This document shows positions 2,786 to 22,218 of a stretch of DNA of 64,000 nt, in pieces. Location of the stretch: NCBI GenBank assembly GCA_902578305.1, contig CACHCK010000001.1:183136-247135 (forward strand). The letters are read 5' to 3'. Under the pieces are notes generated by a model. The model saw nothing but the letters and a program-made list of their open reading frames with translations, searched no databases and was not told the origin of the DNA. This DNA comes from an uncultured Pelagibacteraceae bacterium. GTDB taxonomy: Bacteria; Pseudomonadota; Alphaproteobacteria; Pelagibacterales; AG-422-B15. Within the stretch, counting starts at the first letter, position 1. Every line of letters starts with the position of its first letter. The position numbers and the translations under genes were made by a program.

Positions 2786-3251
2786 TTACTTTTTGGAAGG
2801 CATATTCAGTTGTATTGCTTATGTCATTTAACTTTCTTGTTTTTGACATTTTTTTATAATTTAATTTTTTATACATTTTGTGAGCTTCCTTGAATCTAGT
2901 ATCAGTCCATAGCACTATCTTTCTTTTTTTATATTTCTTTGCAATACTCTCAATCCTTAACATTAGTTTTTTTGCCAGGCCCTTCATTCGATAATTTTTA
3001 TCTATATATAGCTTATGTATTTCTAAGTTATTTTTTTTATATGGTAGATAACCCATGCATCCGATAATTTTATTTTTATCAACATATACCCAGAACTTTC
3101 CTTTTTTATTTTTAAAGTAAGAATAAACATCTCTTAACTCTGGAGAGTCGTTGTCTACATCAAGGTAGCAATTTTTATAATCCTTAAAACACCTTTTGAT
3201 TAAGTTGATTATTTGATTTCCGTCTTTATTTCTTGCTAGTCTTAGTTGCAT
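2778..3251 (-). CDS. GNAT family N-acetyltransferase
   Basis: 157 aa. The acetyl-CoA motif region is HKLYIDKNYRMKGLAKKLMLRIESIAKK. Confidence 0.8.
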   Translation of the reverse strand: MQLRLARNKDGNQIINLIKRCFKDYKNCYLDVDNDSPELRDVYSYFKNKKGKFWVYVDKNKIIGCMGYLPYKKNNLEIHKLYIDKNYRMKGLAKKLMLRIESIAKKYKKRKIVLWTDTRFKEAHKMYKKLNYKKMSKTRKLNDISNTTEYAFQKVIN

Positions 3252-12243: not shown

Positions 12244-13239
12244 TCAAATTTTTTCAATAATCCGAATGAATGGGTCAAGGCTGTCTTGTAAAGGGTCTAA
12301 ACATGGTAAACCATATTCTTTGGATAATCTGTCCTTATGATCACTTGCCTCAGACTGACAATTAGATGTATTAAGTGCAATGCCAATACATTGTATTTGC
12401 TTATTAGTAAGCTTACCATTTTGTATTGTCTGATCGATAACCTCTCTGATGCTCGGTAAAGGTGTATCCACGCCCCTCATATTAGTTCGTGTTGGTTCAT
12501 GACATACAACAAATGCATCCGGTTGGCTTCCATGAAGCAATCCTAGTGAAACTCCTGCGAATGAAGGGTGAAACAGAGATCCCTGACCTTCAATAATATC
12601 CCAGTGATTATCATCATTGTCAGGCGATAACCATTCGACTGCTCCTGAGATAAAATCAGAAACAATAGCATCAATTGCAATGCCACTTTCTGCAATTAAG
12701 ATTCCAGTTTGACCAGTTGCTTTGAAAGATGCATCTATTTGATTACTCTGCATCGCTCTTTCAATTGCGAGTGCTGTATATTTCTTTCCCACAGAACAAT
12801 CTGTTCCAACAGTAAGAAGTCTTTTGCCTGATCGTTTTATGCCTTTTCCTGTCTGAAATTGTTTATTACTAAACCGTAAATCATGAAGTTGAACATTATT
12901 TCTTTCAGCCGCTTCTGCAATTTCATTAAACGAGGATAGTTTTGTATGCATTCCACTGGCTACATTCATTCCAGATGATATTGCATTAATTATAATAGAT
13001 TTCCATTCTTCAGGCATAACGCCCCCGGCATTCACCACGCCAATAACGAATGTCTTGGCGCCATTCTTAACGGCTTCTTCTATGCTCATTTCCTGTAAAC
13101 CTAAGCTAGATTTGGCATTTGGAAGGCTCATTTGACCGATACACCAATCTGGACGCCAGTAATTAACTCCTGCAGCAGTCTTTATTGCCAAATCATCTTT
13201 TGCGTCTCCAAGAAATAATAAATACGGTTTTGATATCAT
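12244..13239 (-). CDS. DUF1611-family protein (DgcN-like partner of the epimerase)
   Basis: 331 aa. It has a P-loop-like region LLTVGTDCSVGKKYTALA, sits upstream of the enolase-superfamily gene and is tightly coupled to it. Confidence 0.7.
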   Translation of the reverse strand: MISKPYLLFLGDAKDDLAIKTAAGVNYWRPDWCIGQMSLPNAKSSLGLQEMSIEEAVKNGAKTFVIGVVNAGGVMPEEWKSIIINAISSGMNVASGMHTKLSSFNEIAEAAERNNVQLHDLRFSNKQFQTGKGIKRSGKRLLTVGTDCSVGKKYTALAIERAMQSNQIDASFKATGQTGILIAESGIAIDAIVSDFISGAVEWLSPDNDDNHWDIIEGQGSLFHPSFAGVSLGLLHGSQPDAFVVCHEPTRTNMRGVDTPLPSIREVIDQTIQNGKLTNKQIQCIGIALNTSNCQSEASDHKDRLSKEYGLPCLDPLQDSLDPFIRIIEKI

Positions 13240-13339
13240 GTTAATAAGTTAATGTTTAAGTGGGGATAAGTGTGCTTAATTCGTGTGGATAACTTTTTTG
13301 CATAAATAATCCCTTGTTTCAAAAAAATACCTTCCTAAA

Positions 13340-13434
13340 ATGACCGTTCGCAATGAGACGTTCATGCGTTTCGGGGTTCGACCGGCCCCAGAAAAAGCGC
13401 TAAAGTGAGAAAATTCTTGCTTTGGCGCTTTTTT
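13340..13434 (+). promoter_or_regulatory. Candidate structured 5' leader / attenuator (or small RNA) upstream of the ferredoxin gene
   Basis: This is a locally GC-rich block in an AT-rich 250-nt spacer. It has hairpins at 13349-13368 and 13373-13389, followed by a terminator. A 22-codon ORF (13340-13408, MTVRNETFMRFGVRPAPEKALK) ends inside the terminator. Confidence 0.4.
13394..13434 (+). terminator. Intrinsic terminator between divergent genes, 55 nt upstream of the ferredoxin ATG
   Basis: GCGCTAAAG (13397-13405) pairs with CTTTGGCGC (13420-13428) with one G-U. An A-run flanks it upstream and TTTTTT (13429-13434) follows. Confidence 0.7.
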
Positions 13435-13489
13435 GATGTATTTGATCCCCTTAAGCAATGCATTTTTAAATATTCTTAAAAAAATCTCA

Positions 13490-13810
13490 ATGGCAAAGAT
13501 CAAATATATCGAATTTAGCGGCGCGGAGCACGAAATTGATGTTAGTAGTGGGCTGACTGTCATGGAGGGTGCGATTAAGAATAAAATACCTGGCATTGAT
13601 GCAGATTGTGGCGGTGCATGTGCATGTGCTACTTGTCATGTATATGTAGCAAAAGAATGGATAGAAAAACTGCCTCCAAAAGAGGACTCTGAGGAAGATA
13701 TGCTGGATTTTGCTTTCGACGTAAAAGATAACAGCAGATTAAGCTGTCAAATTACTGTTTCTGATGAGCTAGACGGTTTAGTTGTTAATATGCCTGAGAA
13801 GCAGTTTTAA
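13490..13810 (+). CDS. 2Fe-2S ferredoxin, adrenodoxin/putidaredoxin type
   Basis: [11 protein letters not shown]..., cluster ligands [13 protein letters not shown] plus a later C in SRLSCQI. Start moved from 13433 because the extension would read through the terminator. Confidence 0.9.
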
Positions 13811-14355
13811 GACCCCTCAAGTTTACAGTCTAAACTATTTTGTATCTCATTTAATTTATCAAATTTAGAACCATTTCCTATAAATTGTCTCATTAACATA
13901 AGACCTTTATTAGACGGGGAAACAACAATAAACCCATCATTTACTTTTGTTGGCATAGAATTTGGTCCAAACAAATAAATTTTAAGCTTACCAAAGTTGT
14001 GCGCATTTTCATTTATTGTAGAAAAGTTGTCAGTATTTTCTGAAAAGAATGATATCGACCAGTAAGACTCAGGTACTTCAGTTTCTATAACCAATGGAAA
14101 GTAAGTAACGTCATAAGCACATCCACCATAAAGTATGTCAGCGCTTGGTCTTATAACTTCAGTAAATTCTGAGTCAGGTAAATCGCGAGCAAAGGAATTA
14201 TTAATCATATTTTGCTCTTCCCAATTTCTACCGATAAACTTCATCATTAAACTAGGTGTGTAGTAAATTATCACTAGATGAAGTGAAAACCCAATGATCA
14301 CAAGTACAAATAATTTTTTAACTAAATTACTCATCACCACACTCCAATTTTTCAA
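13807..14355 (-). CDS. DUF1254-like membrane-anchored protein
   Basis: N-terminal TM, then [17 protein letters not shown]...[10 protein letters not shown], which resembles the short DUF1254 proteins that pair with DUF1214. An alternative start at 14334 is possible. Confidence 0.6.
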
Positions 14356-14926
14356 TAACTGGCAAATCCACCCTCTTCAATTTTGAGAAATATTCTTCAC
14401 CTGGTAAATAAATTCTTAATGCGACGGAAAAACTCTCATCACTAGGTGTTCTCATCCAATTTTTATCAGCTACTTTTGAAATAAAATTATTGTCATTAGT
14501 TAAAAAAATATCGAACCCGCCATCGATATTGAAATCAATTGTTTCACTATTTAAAGCATATATTTTTTCATTATTTTCAACTAAATAACCGTCCTCATTG
14601 TAGACGGTGATACTCCACCATCTAGATTCAATATCATTTCCGAATAAATGATAATTGCAGTTGCCTTGTAATTCTAGTTCTTCAATGTCATTAAATGCAT
14701 GGAAATATGCAGCTTCAGGCTTTGCCAAAGCAAATGTTCCTCTCATTGCGACAGCGGCCCTTGTGTAAATATCTCTATTTTTATCGCCTGGAGATGGCAA
14801 AATTTGCCAATTGTCGTTCTTAATAAATGCAAATTCTTCGTAAAGCTTGGCGGAGGCATAAGTAAAGGCTACAGCAATCAATATTACTGCAATTAAATAT
14901 AATAGGTATCTGCGCAATAAAATCAT
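14327..14926 (-). CDS. DUF1214-like membrane-anchored protein
   Basis: N-terminal TM, then DIYTRAAVAMRGTFALAKPEAAYF...GNCNYHLFG...RWWSITVYNEDGYL, which matches the DUF1214 pattern as I remember it. Confidence 0.65.
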   Translation of the reverse strand: MILLRRYLLYLIAVILIAVAFTYASAKLYEEFAFIKNDNWQILPSPGDKNRDIYTRAAVAMRGTFALAKPEAAYFHAFNDIEELELQGNCNYHLFGNDIESRWWSITVYNEDGYLVENNEKIYALNSETIDFNIDGGFDIFLTNDNNFISKVADKNWMRTPSDESFSVALRIYLPGEEYFSKLKRVDLPVIEKLECGDE

Positions 14927-22028: not shown

Positions 22029-22145
22029 AAATAAAACTAATATTAAAAACCTAGACAACTTAAGAACTTTACAGATAGGAGTCTACAAAAATGTATTGCT
22101 ATAGAACAAATTTTTACTTAAATTTTGTTTTAGGAGACTCAAATA

Positions 22146-22195
22146 GCGCTGCAAAATTAAGCCAAGCAGTGCAATTGAAAATTCGCGTGGCTTAA
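22146..22195 (+). promoter_or_regulatory. Candidate H-type pseudoknot RNA in the leader of the metF-like operon
   Basis: Stem 1 is GCGCTGC (22146-22152) with GCAGTGC (22166-22172). The stem-1 loop segment TTAAGCCA (22157-22164) is perfectly complementary to TGGCTTAA (22188-22195), which lies 24 nt before the ATG. Confidence 0.4.
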
Positions 22196-22218
22196 GCGGT
22201 ACACTCATTTACAGCATT

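What the first reader, a model, noticed from the sequence alone, without database searches (positions are those of the whole stretch)
13240..13489. GC-rich structured leader with terminator and 22-codon ORF upstream of a 2Fe-2S ferredoxin
This 250-nt spacer between divergent genes is the longest non-coding gap in the window. Within AT-rich sequence sits a GC-rich block. It contains hairpin CGCA(A)TGA/TCATGCG (13349-13368), hairpin GGGGTT/GGCCCC (13373-13389), and a 9-bp stem plus T6 (13397-13434). That stem reads as an intrinsic terminator on the plus strand, 55 nt before the ferredoxin ATG. No upstream plus-strand gene exists for it to terminate. The order structure, terminator, gene is that of a riboswitch or attenuator, or of an independent small RNA. 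The GCGC at 13397-13400 could alternatively pair with GCG at 13366-13368, a possible antiterminator. A short ORF (13340-13408, MTVRNETFMRFGVRPAPEKALK) stops inside the terminator stem-loop, so a terminating or stalled ribosome would block the terminator. I do not recognise it as any known riboswitch class.
Basis: seen in the sequence. Interest (0 to 1): 0.7.

Follow-up and report, generated by a model that had tools for sequence, protein, structure and literature searches.

The report
Conserved SAR11 small RNA before ferredoxin
A GC-rich block in front of a ferredoxin gene in one lineage of the abundant ocean bacterium SAR11 is a real, conserved, non-coding RNA unit of about 87 nt with its own promoter, two hairpins and a strong terminator; it matches no catalogued RNA family, and the sequence alone cannot say whether it switches ferredoxin on and off or acts as a free small RNA.

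Summary
Window 13346-13434 (+) folds into P1 (13349-13368), P2 (13373-13389) and an intrinsic terminator (13397-13428 plus U6); folding z = -5.4.

The block lies between dgcN and fdx in every locus recovered from this Pelagibacteraceae lineage: 85 loci, 44 unique sequences. It is absent from eight other SAR11 species and from non-SAR11 alphaproteobacterial fdx loci.

- **Conservation:** P2 is nearly invariant (0.96 identity). Flanking spacer scores 0.43-0.49 and fdx third codon positions 0.50.
- **Structure:** The terminator has four compensatory pairs. G·U pairs mark the + strand as the functional one.
- **Promoter:** A TAnnnT -10 box sits 5-8 nt upstream of P1 in 44/44 sequences.
- **Coding:** The 22-codon ORF is not conserved.
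- **Antiterminator:** The proposed helix shows no covariation, and it breaks where the terminator covaries.
- **Second promoter:** A conserved TAnnnT follows the terminator in all 30 unique spacers, a possible fdx promoter.
- **Known families:** Rfam 15 and ARAGORN find nothing.

My best reading is an independently transcribed small RNA (about 0.45). A factor-controlled attenuator of fdx is the main rival (about 0.3). It is a new member of a known kind, of moderate interest.

The parts
13314..13319 (+). -35-like hexamer TTGTTT of the RNA promoter
   Evidence: It lies 16 nt upstream of the -10. TTGT(T/A)(T/A/G) at 16-17 nt spacing recurs in groups A, B, D, E and L008. It is weaker or absent in groups C, F-I. 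This is an inference from sequence, not a mapped promoter.
   Evidence: A TAnnnT hexamer ends 5-8 nt upstream of the first P1 base in 44 of 44 unique sequences, although the surrounding spacer is at neutral identity. The implied start is about 13346-13349.
13349..13368 (+). P1 hairpin: CGCA(A)UGA / UCAUGCG
   Evidence: There are no compensatory changes, only compatible ones (C>U giving U·G; A>G giving G·U). The outer pair is broken in group C. Groups F-H replace the apical part with a U-rich loop and keep a perfect CGCAU/AUGCG stem.
13369..13372 (+). U-rich linker between P1 and P2
   Evidence: Its length is 1, 4, 5 or 6 nt in different groups. This shifts any reading frame.
13373..13389 (+). 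P2 hairpin GGGGUU-CGACC-GGCCCC, the nearly invariant core
   Evidence: Mean pairwise identity is 0.96 among 9 representatives retrieved by protein. It is invariant in 39/39 further protein-retrieved loci where the region is present. It pairs in 100% of cells. The only changes are U·G>C-G, U·G>U-A and G-C>G·U.
13390..13396 (+). A-rich linker (AGAAAAA); also the 5' side of the A/U extension of the terminator stem
   Evidence: identity 0.73.
13397..13434 (+). P3 intrinsic terminator: 13-bp stem (13397-13409 / 13416-13428), loop, U6 tract (13429-13434)
   Evidence: Found by the terminator scan. It pairs in 96-97% of cells, and 4 pairs carry compensatory double changes (GC/AU, CG/UA, UG/AU). The G·U pairs would be C·A mismatches on the - strand.
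13463..13477 (+). Conserved AT-rich box TTTTTAAATATTCTT; its 3' end TATTCT (13471-13476) is a candidate fdx -10
   Evidence: Identity is 0.76 against 0.43-0.49 for the spacer on either side. A TAnnnT lies at offset 39-44 from the U-tract in all 30 unique spacers. It is 13 nt before the ATG in groups A-E and I, and 31-34 nt before it in F-H.
13490..13810 (+). 2Fe-2S ferredoxin gene (106 aa), the gene downstream
   Evidence: PF00111. It scores below the NCBIfam ISC-Fdx cut-off.

Best explanation
**Core claim (about 0.85-0.9).** Window 13314-13434 is a small non-coding transcription unit on the + strand. A sigma-70-type promoter (-35 at 13314-19, -10 at 13336-41) starts transcription at about 13346-13349. 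The roughly 87-nt RNA folds into a 5' hairpin P1, a nearly invariant hairpin P2 (GGGGUUCGACCGGCCCC), an A-rich linker and a strong Rho-independent terminator, where most transcripts end at 13434.

**Mechanism I think most likely (inferred).** This is a stand-alone small RNA gene.
- fdx is transcribed mainly from its own promoter. Its -10 is the conserved TAnnnT at 13471-76.
- The terminator insulates fdx from the RNA's promoter.
- The released RNA acts through P2, whose stem and loop are both fixed in sequence. That pattern fits a site read by a specific protein or by base-pairing better than a helix that is merely structural.
- P1 and the terminator hairpin would serve as 5' and 3' stabilisers.
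- The A-rich linker plus the U tail is the arrangement seen in chaperone-bound sRNAs.

The partner and the targets are unknown.
For: - **Folding:** + strand z = -5.4 against -2.9 for the - strand.
- **Distribution:** Present in every dgcN-fdx locus of the lineage, namely 9/9 species genomes, 31 metagenome loci and 47 protein-retrieved contigs.
- **Conservation:** P2 at 0.96 and the terminator at 0.75, against 0.43-0.49 for flanking spacer and 0.50 for fdx third codon positions.
- **Terminator:** Four compensatory pairs in the stem.
- **Promoter:** -10 TAnnnT in 44/44 unique sequences, just upstream of P1.
- **Non-coding:** Frame-shifting indels, and the start codon is missing in most groups.
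- **No switch helix:** The tested antiterminator shows no covariation. The terminator's changes are compensated within the terminator, not in the alternative helix.
- **Second promoter candidate:** A positionally fixed TAnnnT downstream of the terminator in 30/30 unique spacers. In several spacers it is the only such hexamer, and its internal bases vary (TATTCT, TAATCT, TAAACT, TATATT, TATGAT, TATAGT).
- **Copy number:** One copy per locus. The metagenome pattern scan found no SAR11-like hit outside this locus.
Against: - No transcript data were available, so both promoters and the RNA ends are inferred from sequence.
- The whole 6-kb neighbourhood is syntenic in all loci. The RNA was never seen away from fdx, as it might be if it were an independent gene.
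- The candidate fdx -10 would leave a 5' UTR of only about 6-9 nt in groups A-E. It has no convincing -35.
- No target or seed complementarity was found in the 64-kb window.
- In SAR11, most conserved GC-rich intergenic RNAs described so far are cis-regulatory (PMC2704228).
- P2 and P1 show no compensatory changes, so their pairing rests on compatible changes and on an indel pattern.
- The metagenome hits were retrieved with a P2-based pattern. Only the protein-retrieved loci are unbiased for P2 conservation.
Confidence: 0.45

Rival explanations
1. Cis-acting 5' leader (attenuator or riboswitch) of fdx. fdx is transcribed from the RNA's promoter. The terminator is the default OFF state. A ligand or an RNA-binding protein that recognises the invariant P2 hairpin, which lies only 7 nt from the terminator base, modulates read-through.
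For: - The order promoter, structure, terminator, gene is kept in all loci, with the element always co-oriented and 55-80 nt from the fdx ATG.
- P2 is invariant, as expected of a sensor core.
- Folding the nascent transcript without the 3' arm gives a helix GCGUUUU/AAAAGCGC stacked on P2 as the MFE in groups B, C and D. That helix excludes both P1 and the terminator, and it can form in about 90% of cells.
- There is no strong -35/-10 pair between the terminator and the ATG in group A.
- SAR11 relies heavily on cis-regulatory RNAs (PMC2704228; PMC5069720).
Against: - The alternative helix has no covariation. It is disrupted in the 8 sequences where terminator position G>A is compensated on the terminator's own 3' arm, and in the 5 where P1's 3' strand changes.
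- The alternative pairings differ between groups.
- There is no multi-helix junction or covarying aptamer stems, and no Rfam riboswitch match even at E<=10.
- The 13-20 bp terminator is far more stable than any competitor.
- A conserved candidate -10 lies downstream of the terminator.
Confidence: 0.3
2. Constitutive promoter-terminator cassette or insulator with no specific RNA function. One version is a decayed remnant of an older gene or leader, kept only because the terminator shields fdx or dgcN from stray transcription.
For: The only helix with compensatory evolution is the terminator. Other SAR11 lineages also place fdx directly behind a strong terminator, that of the proteorhodopsin-like gene.
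Against: An insulator does not explain a conserved promoter feeding it. It also does not explain a 17-nt hairpin at 0.96 identity while neutral sites sit at about 0.5. Nor does it explain retention of about 90 extra bases in a genome with very short spacers.
Confidence: 0.08
3. Leader-peptide (ribosome-mediated) attenuator or small protein gene. Translation of the 22-codon ORF (13340-13408), or of the internal 14-codon ORF from ATG 13364, controls terminator formation.
For: The ORFs exist in the window, and the 22-codon ORF ends inside the terminator's 5' arm. The peptide start MRFGVRPAP recurs in several groups.
Against: - ATG 13340 lies in the -10 box and is present in only 13/44 unique sequences.
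- Linker indels of 1-2 nt shift the frame in group C, and peptide lengths run from 1 to 62 aa.
- P2 is invariant at synonymous positions too, which is not a codon-like pattern.
- There is no Shine-Dalgarno sequence.
Confidence: 0.02
4. DNA-level element: P2 and/or P1 are operator palindromes for a transcription factor, not RNA structure.
For: P1 and P2 are imperfect palindromes. The same spacer carries conserved DnaA-box-like 9-mers, so the region is used by DNA-binding proteins.
Against: - Two of the six P2 pairs are U·G. The substitutions seen are those tolerated by RNA pairing on the + strand only (U·G>C-G, U·G>U-A, G-C>G·U).
- The element lies between a conserved -10 and a terminator, that is, inside a transcript.
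Confidence: 0.05

Closest known systems
Trans-acting small RNAs of Alphaproteobacteria that end in an intrinsic terminator (e.g. AbcR1/2; the 'cuckoo' RNAs, Rfam RF02344, PMC4615179)
   Same: Size of about 70-160 nt, own promoter, adjacent hairpins, terminal stem-loop with a U tail, lineage-restricted distribution, conserved intergenic neighbourhood.
   Different: No sequence or covariance-model similarity. No C-rich anti-Shine-Dalgarno loop motif (CCUCCUCCC). Single copy. Expression, chaperone and targets are all untested here.
Terminator-type riboswitches and attenuators, including those of SAR11 (glycine, SAM-V, and small hairpin classes such as preQ1-I)
   Same: The order promoter, conserved structure, intrinsic terminator, gene. 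A very highly conserved core. The transcript appears to start at the first helix, as reported for the SAR11 glycine riboswitch (PMC5069720).
   Different: No conserved mutually exclusive antiterminator. No junction or covarying aptamer helices. No Rfam match. A candidate promoter lies between the terminator and the gene.
Candidate SAR11 RNA motifs found in long GC-rich intergenic regions (Meyer et al. 2009, PMC2704228), especially the pntA-associated motif of two stems in series
   Same: Found by the same signature: a long, GC-rich spacer in an AT-rich streamlined genome. Hairpins in series with one very conserved element. About 60 nt of spacer lacking supported structure before the gene. Known only from SAR11 and marine metagenomes.
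   Different: A different sequence, a different neighbouring gene and a different SAR11 lineage. None of the eight motifs described there is next to ferredoxin. This one has a clear terminator and a clear promoter.
ANTAR-type and guanidine-II (mini-ykkC) dual-hairpin elements
   Same: Two short tandem hairpins upstream of a terminator.
   Different: The loops are not ACGR tetraloops or A1/G4 hexaloops. The P1 loop is not conserved (GACGU against UUUUAC/UUUUC/UUUUU). P2 does not overlap the terminator.

Membership tests
Any Rfam 15 family | Reaches the family's gathering score, or at least a meaningful E-value, against its covariance model | tested here: not met
   No match at gathering score in the whole window. 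Only chance-level hits at E 0.6-9 in 12800-14000, none covering the block coherently. No hit at E<=1 in six divergent representative loci.
tRNA / tmRNA (P2 resembles a T-arm: GGUUCGA) | Cloverleaf or tRNA-like domain detectable by ARAGORN; 7-nt T-loop closed by G53-C61 | tested here: not met
   ARAGORN finds no tRNA or tmRNA in the window. With UUCGACC read as the loop, the closing position would be G-G (read).
Terminator-type riboswitch / attenuator | Intrinsic terminator between a conserved structure and the regulated gene | tested here: met
Terminator-type riboswitch / attenuator | Conserved alternative (antiterminator) helix mutually exclusive with the terminator, maintained by compatible or compensatory change | tested here: not met
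   The GCGUUU x AAGCGC helix has 0 compensatory pairs, equals column shuffles (500/500), and breaks in 8 + 5 sequences where its partners changed. Other registers or a protein-mediated mechanism are not excluded.
Terminator-type riboswitch / attenuator | Downstream gene depends on read-through (no promoter of its own) | tested here: inconclusive
   The consensus scan finds no -35/-10 pair. A positionally conserved TAnnnT lies after the terminator in 30/30 spacers.
Terminator-type riboswitch / attenuator | Binding of a ligand or factor that changes termination | not testable with these tools
   Needs in-line probing or in vitro transcription.
Leader-peptide attenuator | Conserved translated short ORF inside the leader transcript | tested here: not met
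   The ATG lies in the -10 box and is present in 13/44 unique sequences. There are frame-shifting indels, and peptides run from 1 to 62 aa.
Independent (trans-acting) small RNA gene | Own promoter and own intrinsic terminator delimiting a short non-coding transcript | tested here: met
   -10 in 44/44 unique sequences; terminator with covariation; non-coding. All of this is from sequence, and no transcript was observed.
Independent (trans-acting) small RNA gene | Neighbouring gene has a separate promoter | tested here: inconclusive
   Candidate -10 at 13471-76, conserved in position. There is no -35, and the implied leader is very short.
Independent (trans-acting) small RNA gene | Conserved accessible seed with conserved targets; detectable RNA | not testable with these tools
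   Only 64 kb of the genome is held. Complementarity searches gave nothing above chance.
Guanidine-II (mini-ykkC) | Two hairpins, each capped by a conserved ACGR tetraloop | tested here: not met
   The P2 loop is CGACC. The P1 loop is GACGU or U-rich and is not conserved. No Rfam hit.
ANTAR antiterminator target | Two hairpins with hexaloops (A at position 1, G at position 4), the second overlapping the terminator's 5' arm | tested here: not met
   Loops are 5 nt and of variable sequence. P2 ends 7 nt before the terminator stem.

The most novel reading that the evidence does not exclude
A previously unrecognised class of cis-regulatory RNA in SAR11. The invariant 17-nt hairpin P2, next to a terminator, would be the sensor for a small ligand or an RNA-binding protein reporting iron, Fe-S or redox status. 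It would gate ferredoxin expression by controlled read-through, in an organism that has almost no protein transcription factors.
Probability: 0.25. Interest if true: 0.7.

Novelty: new member of a known kind. Interest (0 to 1): 0.5.

Why it matters
SAR11 is among the most abundant organisms in the ocean. Its genome is streamlined to the point that almost every non-coding base is under selection. It has very few protein regulators and depends heavily on RNA elements.

A ~90-nt unit with a 17-nt hairpin conserved well above the adjacent ferredoxin's coding sequence is therefore very likely functional. Its place next to a 2Fe-2S ferredoxin and a nearby ferredoxin-NADP reductase-like gene would make it a candidate handle on iron or redox economy in a sizeable SAR11 lineage.

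It also gives a compact, testable case: an ~87-nt RNA with one invariant hairpin. No free-standing regulatory sRNA of SAR11 turned up in the paper searches made here. The practical yield is a seed alignment and covariance model for a family absent from Rfam.

Tried and rejected
- **Known RNA families:** Rfam at gathering and permissive thresholds on the window and on six divergent loci found nothing. ARAGORN found nothing.
- **Viral contigs:** The pattern scan gave 0 hits.
- **Extra copies:** None in the window by P2 pattern with 3 mismatches or by covariance model. The only other model hits were antisense or terminator-only matches of 33 bits or less.
- **Leader peptide:** Rejected.
Not supported.
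- **Pseudoknot or kissing-loop:** I looked by eye for pairing of the P2 loop (CGACC) with the 5' leader or the P1 loop. The candidate partners are not conserved between groups.
- **Target search:** Exact complementarity and duplex folding against 64 putative start regions gave only chance-level or meaningless long-loop duplexes.
- **Replication origin (prompted by the DnaA boxes):** There is no GC-skew switch near 13 kb. Near-consensus boxes occur across the window at chance frequency.
- **-10 to ATG spacing:** I looked for a genome-typical spacing among other genes of the window. The result was too noisy to use.
- **Literature:** Meyer et al. 2009, the later GC-rich-IGR surveys returned by the search, and a Red Sea TSS study describe no ferredoxin-associated SAR11 motif.

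Full report
**What is in the sequence.** The window is from a Pelagibacteraceae (SAR11) genome. Its ferredoxin is 99-100% identical to those of single-cell genomes AG-426-I21 and AG-891-J04.

The finding lies in the 250-nt spacer between two divergent genes. One is dgcN (12244-13239, minus strand; NCBIfam DgcN 491.5 bits, above its cut-off). The other is a 106-aa 2Fe-2S ferredoxin (13490-13810, plus strand). This is the longest gap in the window and the most GC-rich of the long gaps. GC reaches 0.52-0.57 across 13340-13429, against 0.23-0.30 on either side.

The plus strand of 13335-13440 folds at -43.1 kcal/mol with z = -5.4. The minus strand gives only z = -2.9.

**Distribution.** I retrieved fdx loci by protein from one genome per species. 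All nine Pelagibacteraceae genomes that share the dgcN/fdx arrangement (L001-L009) carry the block. Eight other Pelagibacteraceae species lack it; in six of them fdx follows a proteorhodopsin-like gene. The non-SAR11 alphaproteobacterial loci lack it too.

A metagenome scan with a P2-plus-A-run pattern gave 38 loci. Of these, 31 are AT-rich SAR11-like contigs, all with fdx 113-144 nt downstream of the P2 start. The other seven are chance matches in GC-rich contigs.

Contigs retrieved through seven fdx protein clusters gave 48 more loci, independently of the RNA motif. Every one in which the region is present has the block. That set includes a further sequence group (I), which the DNA pattern had missed.

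In total 85 loci give 44 unique promoter-to-terminator sequences, in about ten sequence groups. The gene order hisI, rpmF, dgcA, dgcN, RNA, fdx, DUF1254, DUF1214, a thioredoxin-reductase-like flavoprotein and a methyltransferase is identical in all of them. Context therefore cannot separate a cis element from an independent gene.

**Strength of selection.** I compared nine representatives that were all retrieved by protein.

| Segment | Mean pairwise identity |
|---|---|
| fdx third codon positions | 0.50 |
| Spacer segments around the element | 0.43-0.49 |
| P2 | 0.96 |
| U-tract and following TTG | 0.94 |
| P1 | 0.74 (an underestimate, because groups F-H are misaligned) |
| Terminator | 0.75 |
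| AT-rich box 13463-13477 | 0.76 |

The block is under purifying selection, and P2 is under sequence-specific selection.

**Structure.**
- RNAalifold on the MAFFT alignment recovers P2 and the terminator independently.
- On 29 unique sequences, the terminator and its A/U extension pair in 96% of cells. Four pairs show changes on both sides (GC/AU, CG/UA, UG/AU). Sliding the partners by one to three columns drops pairing for the whole tested structure (P2 plus terminator) from 97% to 45-69%.
- P2 pairs in 100% of cells. Its only variation is one-sided and compatible: U·G to C-G, U·G to U-A, G-C to G·U.
- P1 has no compensatory change and a few disruptive singletons. Groups F-H have lost the apical part and the bulged A, yet keep a perfect CGCAU/AUGCG stem with a U-rich loop.
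- The many G·U pairs in P2 and P3 would be C·A mismatches in a minus-strand RNA, so the functional strand is plus.

**Not coding.** The ORF's ATG (13340) overlaps the -10 hexamer TAAAAT (13336-13341). It exists in only 13 of 44 unique sequences. The P1-P2 linker is 1, 4, 5 or 6 nt long, even among close relatives within group C. Frames therefore shift, and predicted peptides range from 1 to 62 residues. P2 is invariant at positions that would be synonymous. The leader-peptide idea is rejected.

**Promoter and 5' end.** A TAnnnT hexamer ends 5-8 nt upstream of the first P1 base in 44 of 44 unique sequences. The variants are TAAAAT, TAGAAT, TAAGAT, TAATAT, TATTCT, TATCAT, TATGAT and TAATTT. In most groups a TTGTxx hexamer lies 16-17 nt upstream of it. 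The surrounding spacer is at neutral identity. I infer a transcription start at about 13346-13349 and an RNA of about 86-89 nt ending at 13434. This is inference from sequence; no transcript data were available.

**The antiterminator.** It would enclose P2 and exclude both P1 and the terminator. It is the MFE of the nascent transcript in groups B, C and D and can form in 89.5% of cells.

Against it, the helix has no covariation and is matched by every column shuffle. It breaks in the eight sequences where the terminator's G changed to A, a change compensated on the terminator's own 3' arm. It also breaks in the five sequences where P1's 3' strand changed. In the other groups the best alternative pairings use different partners. 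A classical RNA-only switch in this register is therefore not supported. A protein or ligand acting at P2, 7 nt from the terminator base, cannot be excluded.

**A second promoter?** Between the terminator and the ATG, only the box TTTTTAAATATTCTT (13463-13477) is conserved. It keeps a fixed distance from the terminator. Its distance to the ATG differs between groups.

Its 3' end is a TAnnnT hexamer in all 30 unique spacers, and often the only one. It reads TATTCT, TAATCT or TAAACT, 13 nt before the ATG, in groups A-E and I. It reads TATATT, TATGAT, TATGGT or TATAGT, 31-34 nt before the ATG, in groups F-H. Fixed T, A and T with variable internal bases is how a -10 element evolves.

If this is the fdx -10, fdx has its own promoter and the RNA is a separate gene. 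The caveats are that there is no convincing -35, that the implied 5' UTR is very short in groups A-E, and that the simple consensus scan finds no plus-strand promoter here.

**Comparison with what is known.**
- Rfam 15 gives nothing for the window or for six divergent representatives.
- ARAGORN gives nothing, although P2 looks a little like a T-arm.
- The loops rule out guanidine-II and ANTAR-type dual hairpins.
- Meyer et al. 2009 used the same signature, long GC-rich spacers, to find SAR11 RNAs. None of their eight motifs is next to ferredoxin.
- Later GC-rich-spacer surveys and a Red Sea TSS study returned by the literature search mention no such element.
- The alphaproteobacterial 'cuckoo' sRNAs share the architecture but not the motif.

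**Verdict.** The core claim is well supported (about 0.85-0.9). It is a conserved, non-coding, plus-strand transcription unit with a promoter, P1, an invariant P2 and an intrinsic terminator.

For function I rank the readings as follows.
- An independently transcribed small RNA acting through P2: about 0.45.
- A factor-controlled attenuator of fdx: about 0.3.
- A functionless insulator: about 0.08.
- A DNA operator: about 0.05.
- A leader peptide: about 0.02.

The ranking rests on two points. The terminator is maintained at the expense of the alternative helix, and a conserved -10-like element follows it. Pulling the other way are the prior that SAR11 intergenic RNAs are usually cis-regulatory and the invariable position in front of fdx.

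It is a new family of a known kind, restricted to one SAR11 lineage, with no known partner, target or signal.

**Limits.**
- There is no expression evidence.
- Covariation in P1 and P2 is absent because they barely vary.
- The metagenome loci were selected with a P2 pattern, so conservation figures use protein-retrieved loci only.
- Target prediction was limited to 64 kb.

Noticed in passing
window 13261-13269 and 13284-13292 (+): There are two DnaA-box-like 9-mers in direct orientation, 23 nt apart, between the dgcN start and the RNA promoter: TGGGGATAA and TGTGGATAA. The second is the only perfect match to the consensus TGTGGATAA in the 64-kb window. At least one box with 1 mismatch or fewer sits at the aligned position in all nine group representatives. 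There is no GC-skew switch here, so this looks like a DnaA-type operator for dgcN or the RNA promoter and not an origin.
   Followed up: partly
window 13463-13477 (+); all related loci: A conserved AT-rich box TTTTTAAWTAWTCTT lies at a fixed distance (about 35 nt) from the terminator U-tract. Its distance to the fdx ATG varies (13 nt, or 31-34 nt after a ~24-nt insertion in groups F-H). It may be the fdx -10 region, an operator, or both.
   Followed up: partly
L019, L044, L047, L056, L063, L075 (upstream of fdx, about locus 2900-3000): In other SAR11 species the fdx homologue (68-73% identity) follows a proteorhodopsin-like gene and its strong terminator. In four of them (L019, L044, L063, L075) only about 17-25 nt separate the T-run from the ATG, with TTATAT/TATATA 6-8 nt upstream of the ATG. 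That arrangement suggests a leaderless or read-through fdx mRNA. In these lineages too, fdx sits directly behind a strong terminator.
   Followed up: no
L003 about 2858-2870 and 2990-3005 (group B); window 13349-13355 and 13485-13493: The 5' end of the RNA and the fdx start region share same-sense sequence: CGCAATGG in group B and CAATG in groups A-E and I. In groups F-H both lack it (CGCATTTTT and TATATG/CATATG). The 3' strand of P1 could therefore in principle pair with the fdx start region. This rests on a single evolutionary split, so it has no statistical weight.
   Followed up: no
window 14724-14751 (minus-strand sense of the DUF1214 gene, 14327-14926): The mRNA-sense strand contains TCGCAATGAGA and TTGCTTTGGC. 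These are identical, not complementary, to the RNA's 5' end and to the terminator's 3' arm. About two 11-mers of this kind are expected by chance.
   Followed up: no
window 22059-22218: This is the second long spacer between divergent genes (160 nt, GC 0.34) and was not examined. Rfam finds nothing anywhere in the window, and there are no tRNA genes in 64 kb.
   Followed up: no
L102 (LULJ01005631.1) and L116 (LULV01001933.1): In these two near-identical metagenome contigs the dgcN matches are split into two tblastn pieces. In L102 dgcA is also split and rpmF is truncated. This means frameshifts, deletions or assembly errors in the genes next to an intact RNA block.
   Followed up: no
L094, L098, L118 (GC about 0.6): Three soil-type metagenome contigs share an identical ~280-nt stretch that matches the P2 search pattern by chance. 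They are unrelated to the SAR11 element.
   Followed up: no
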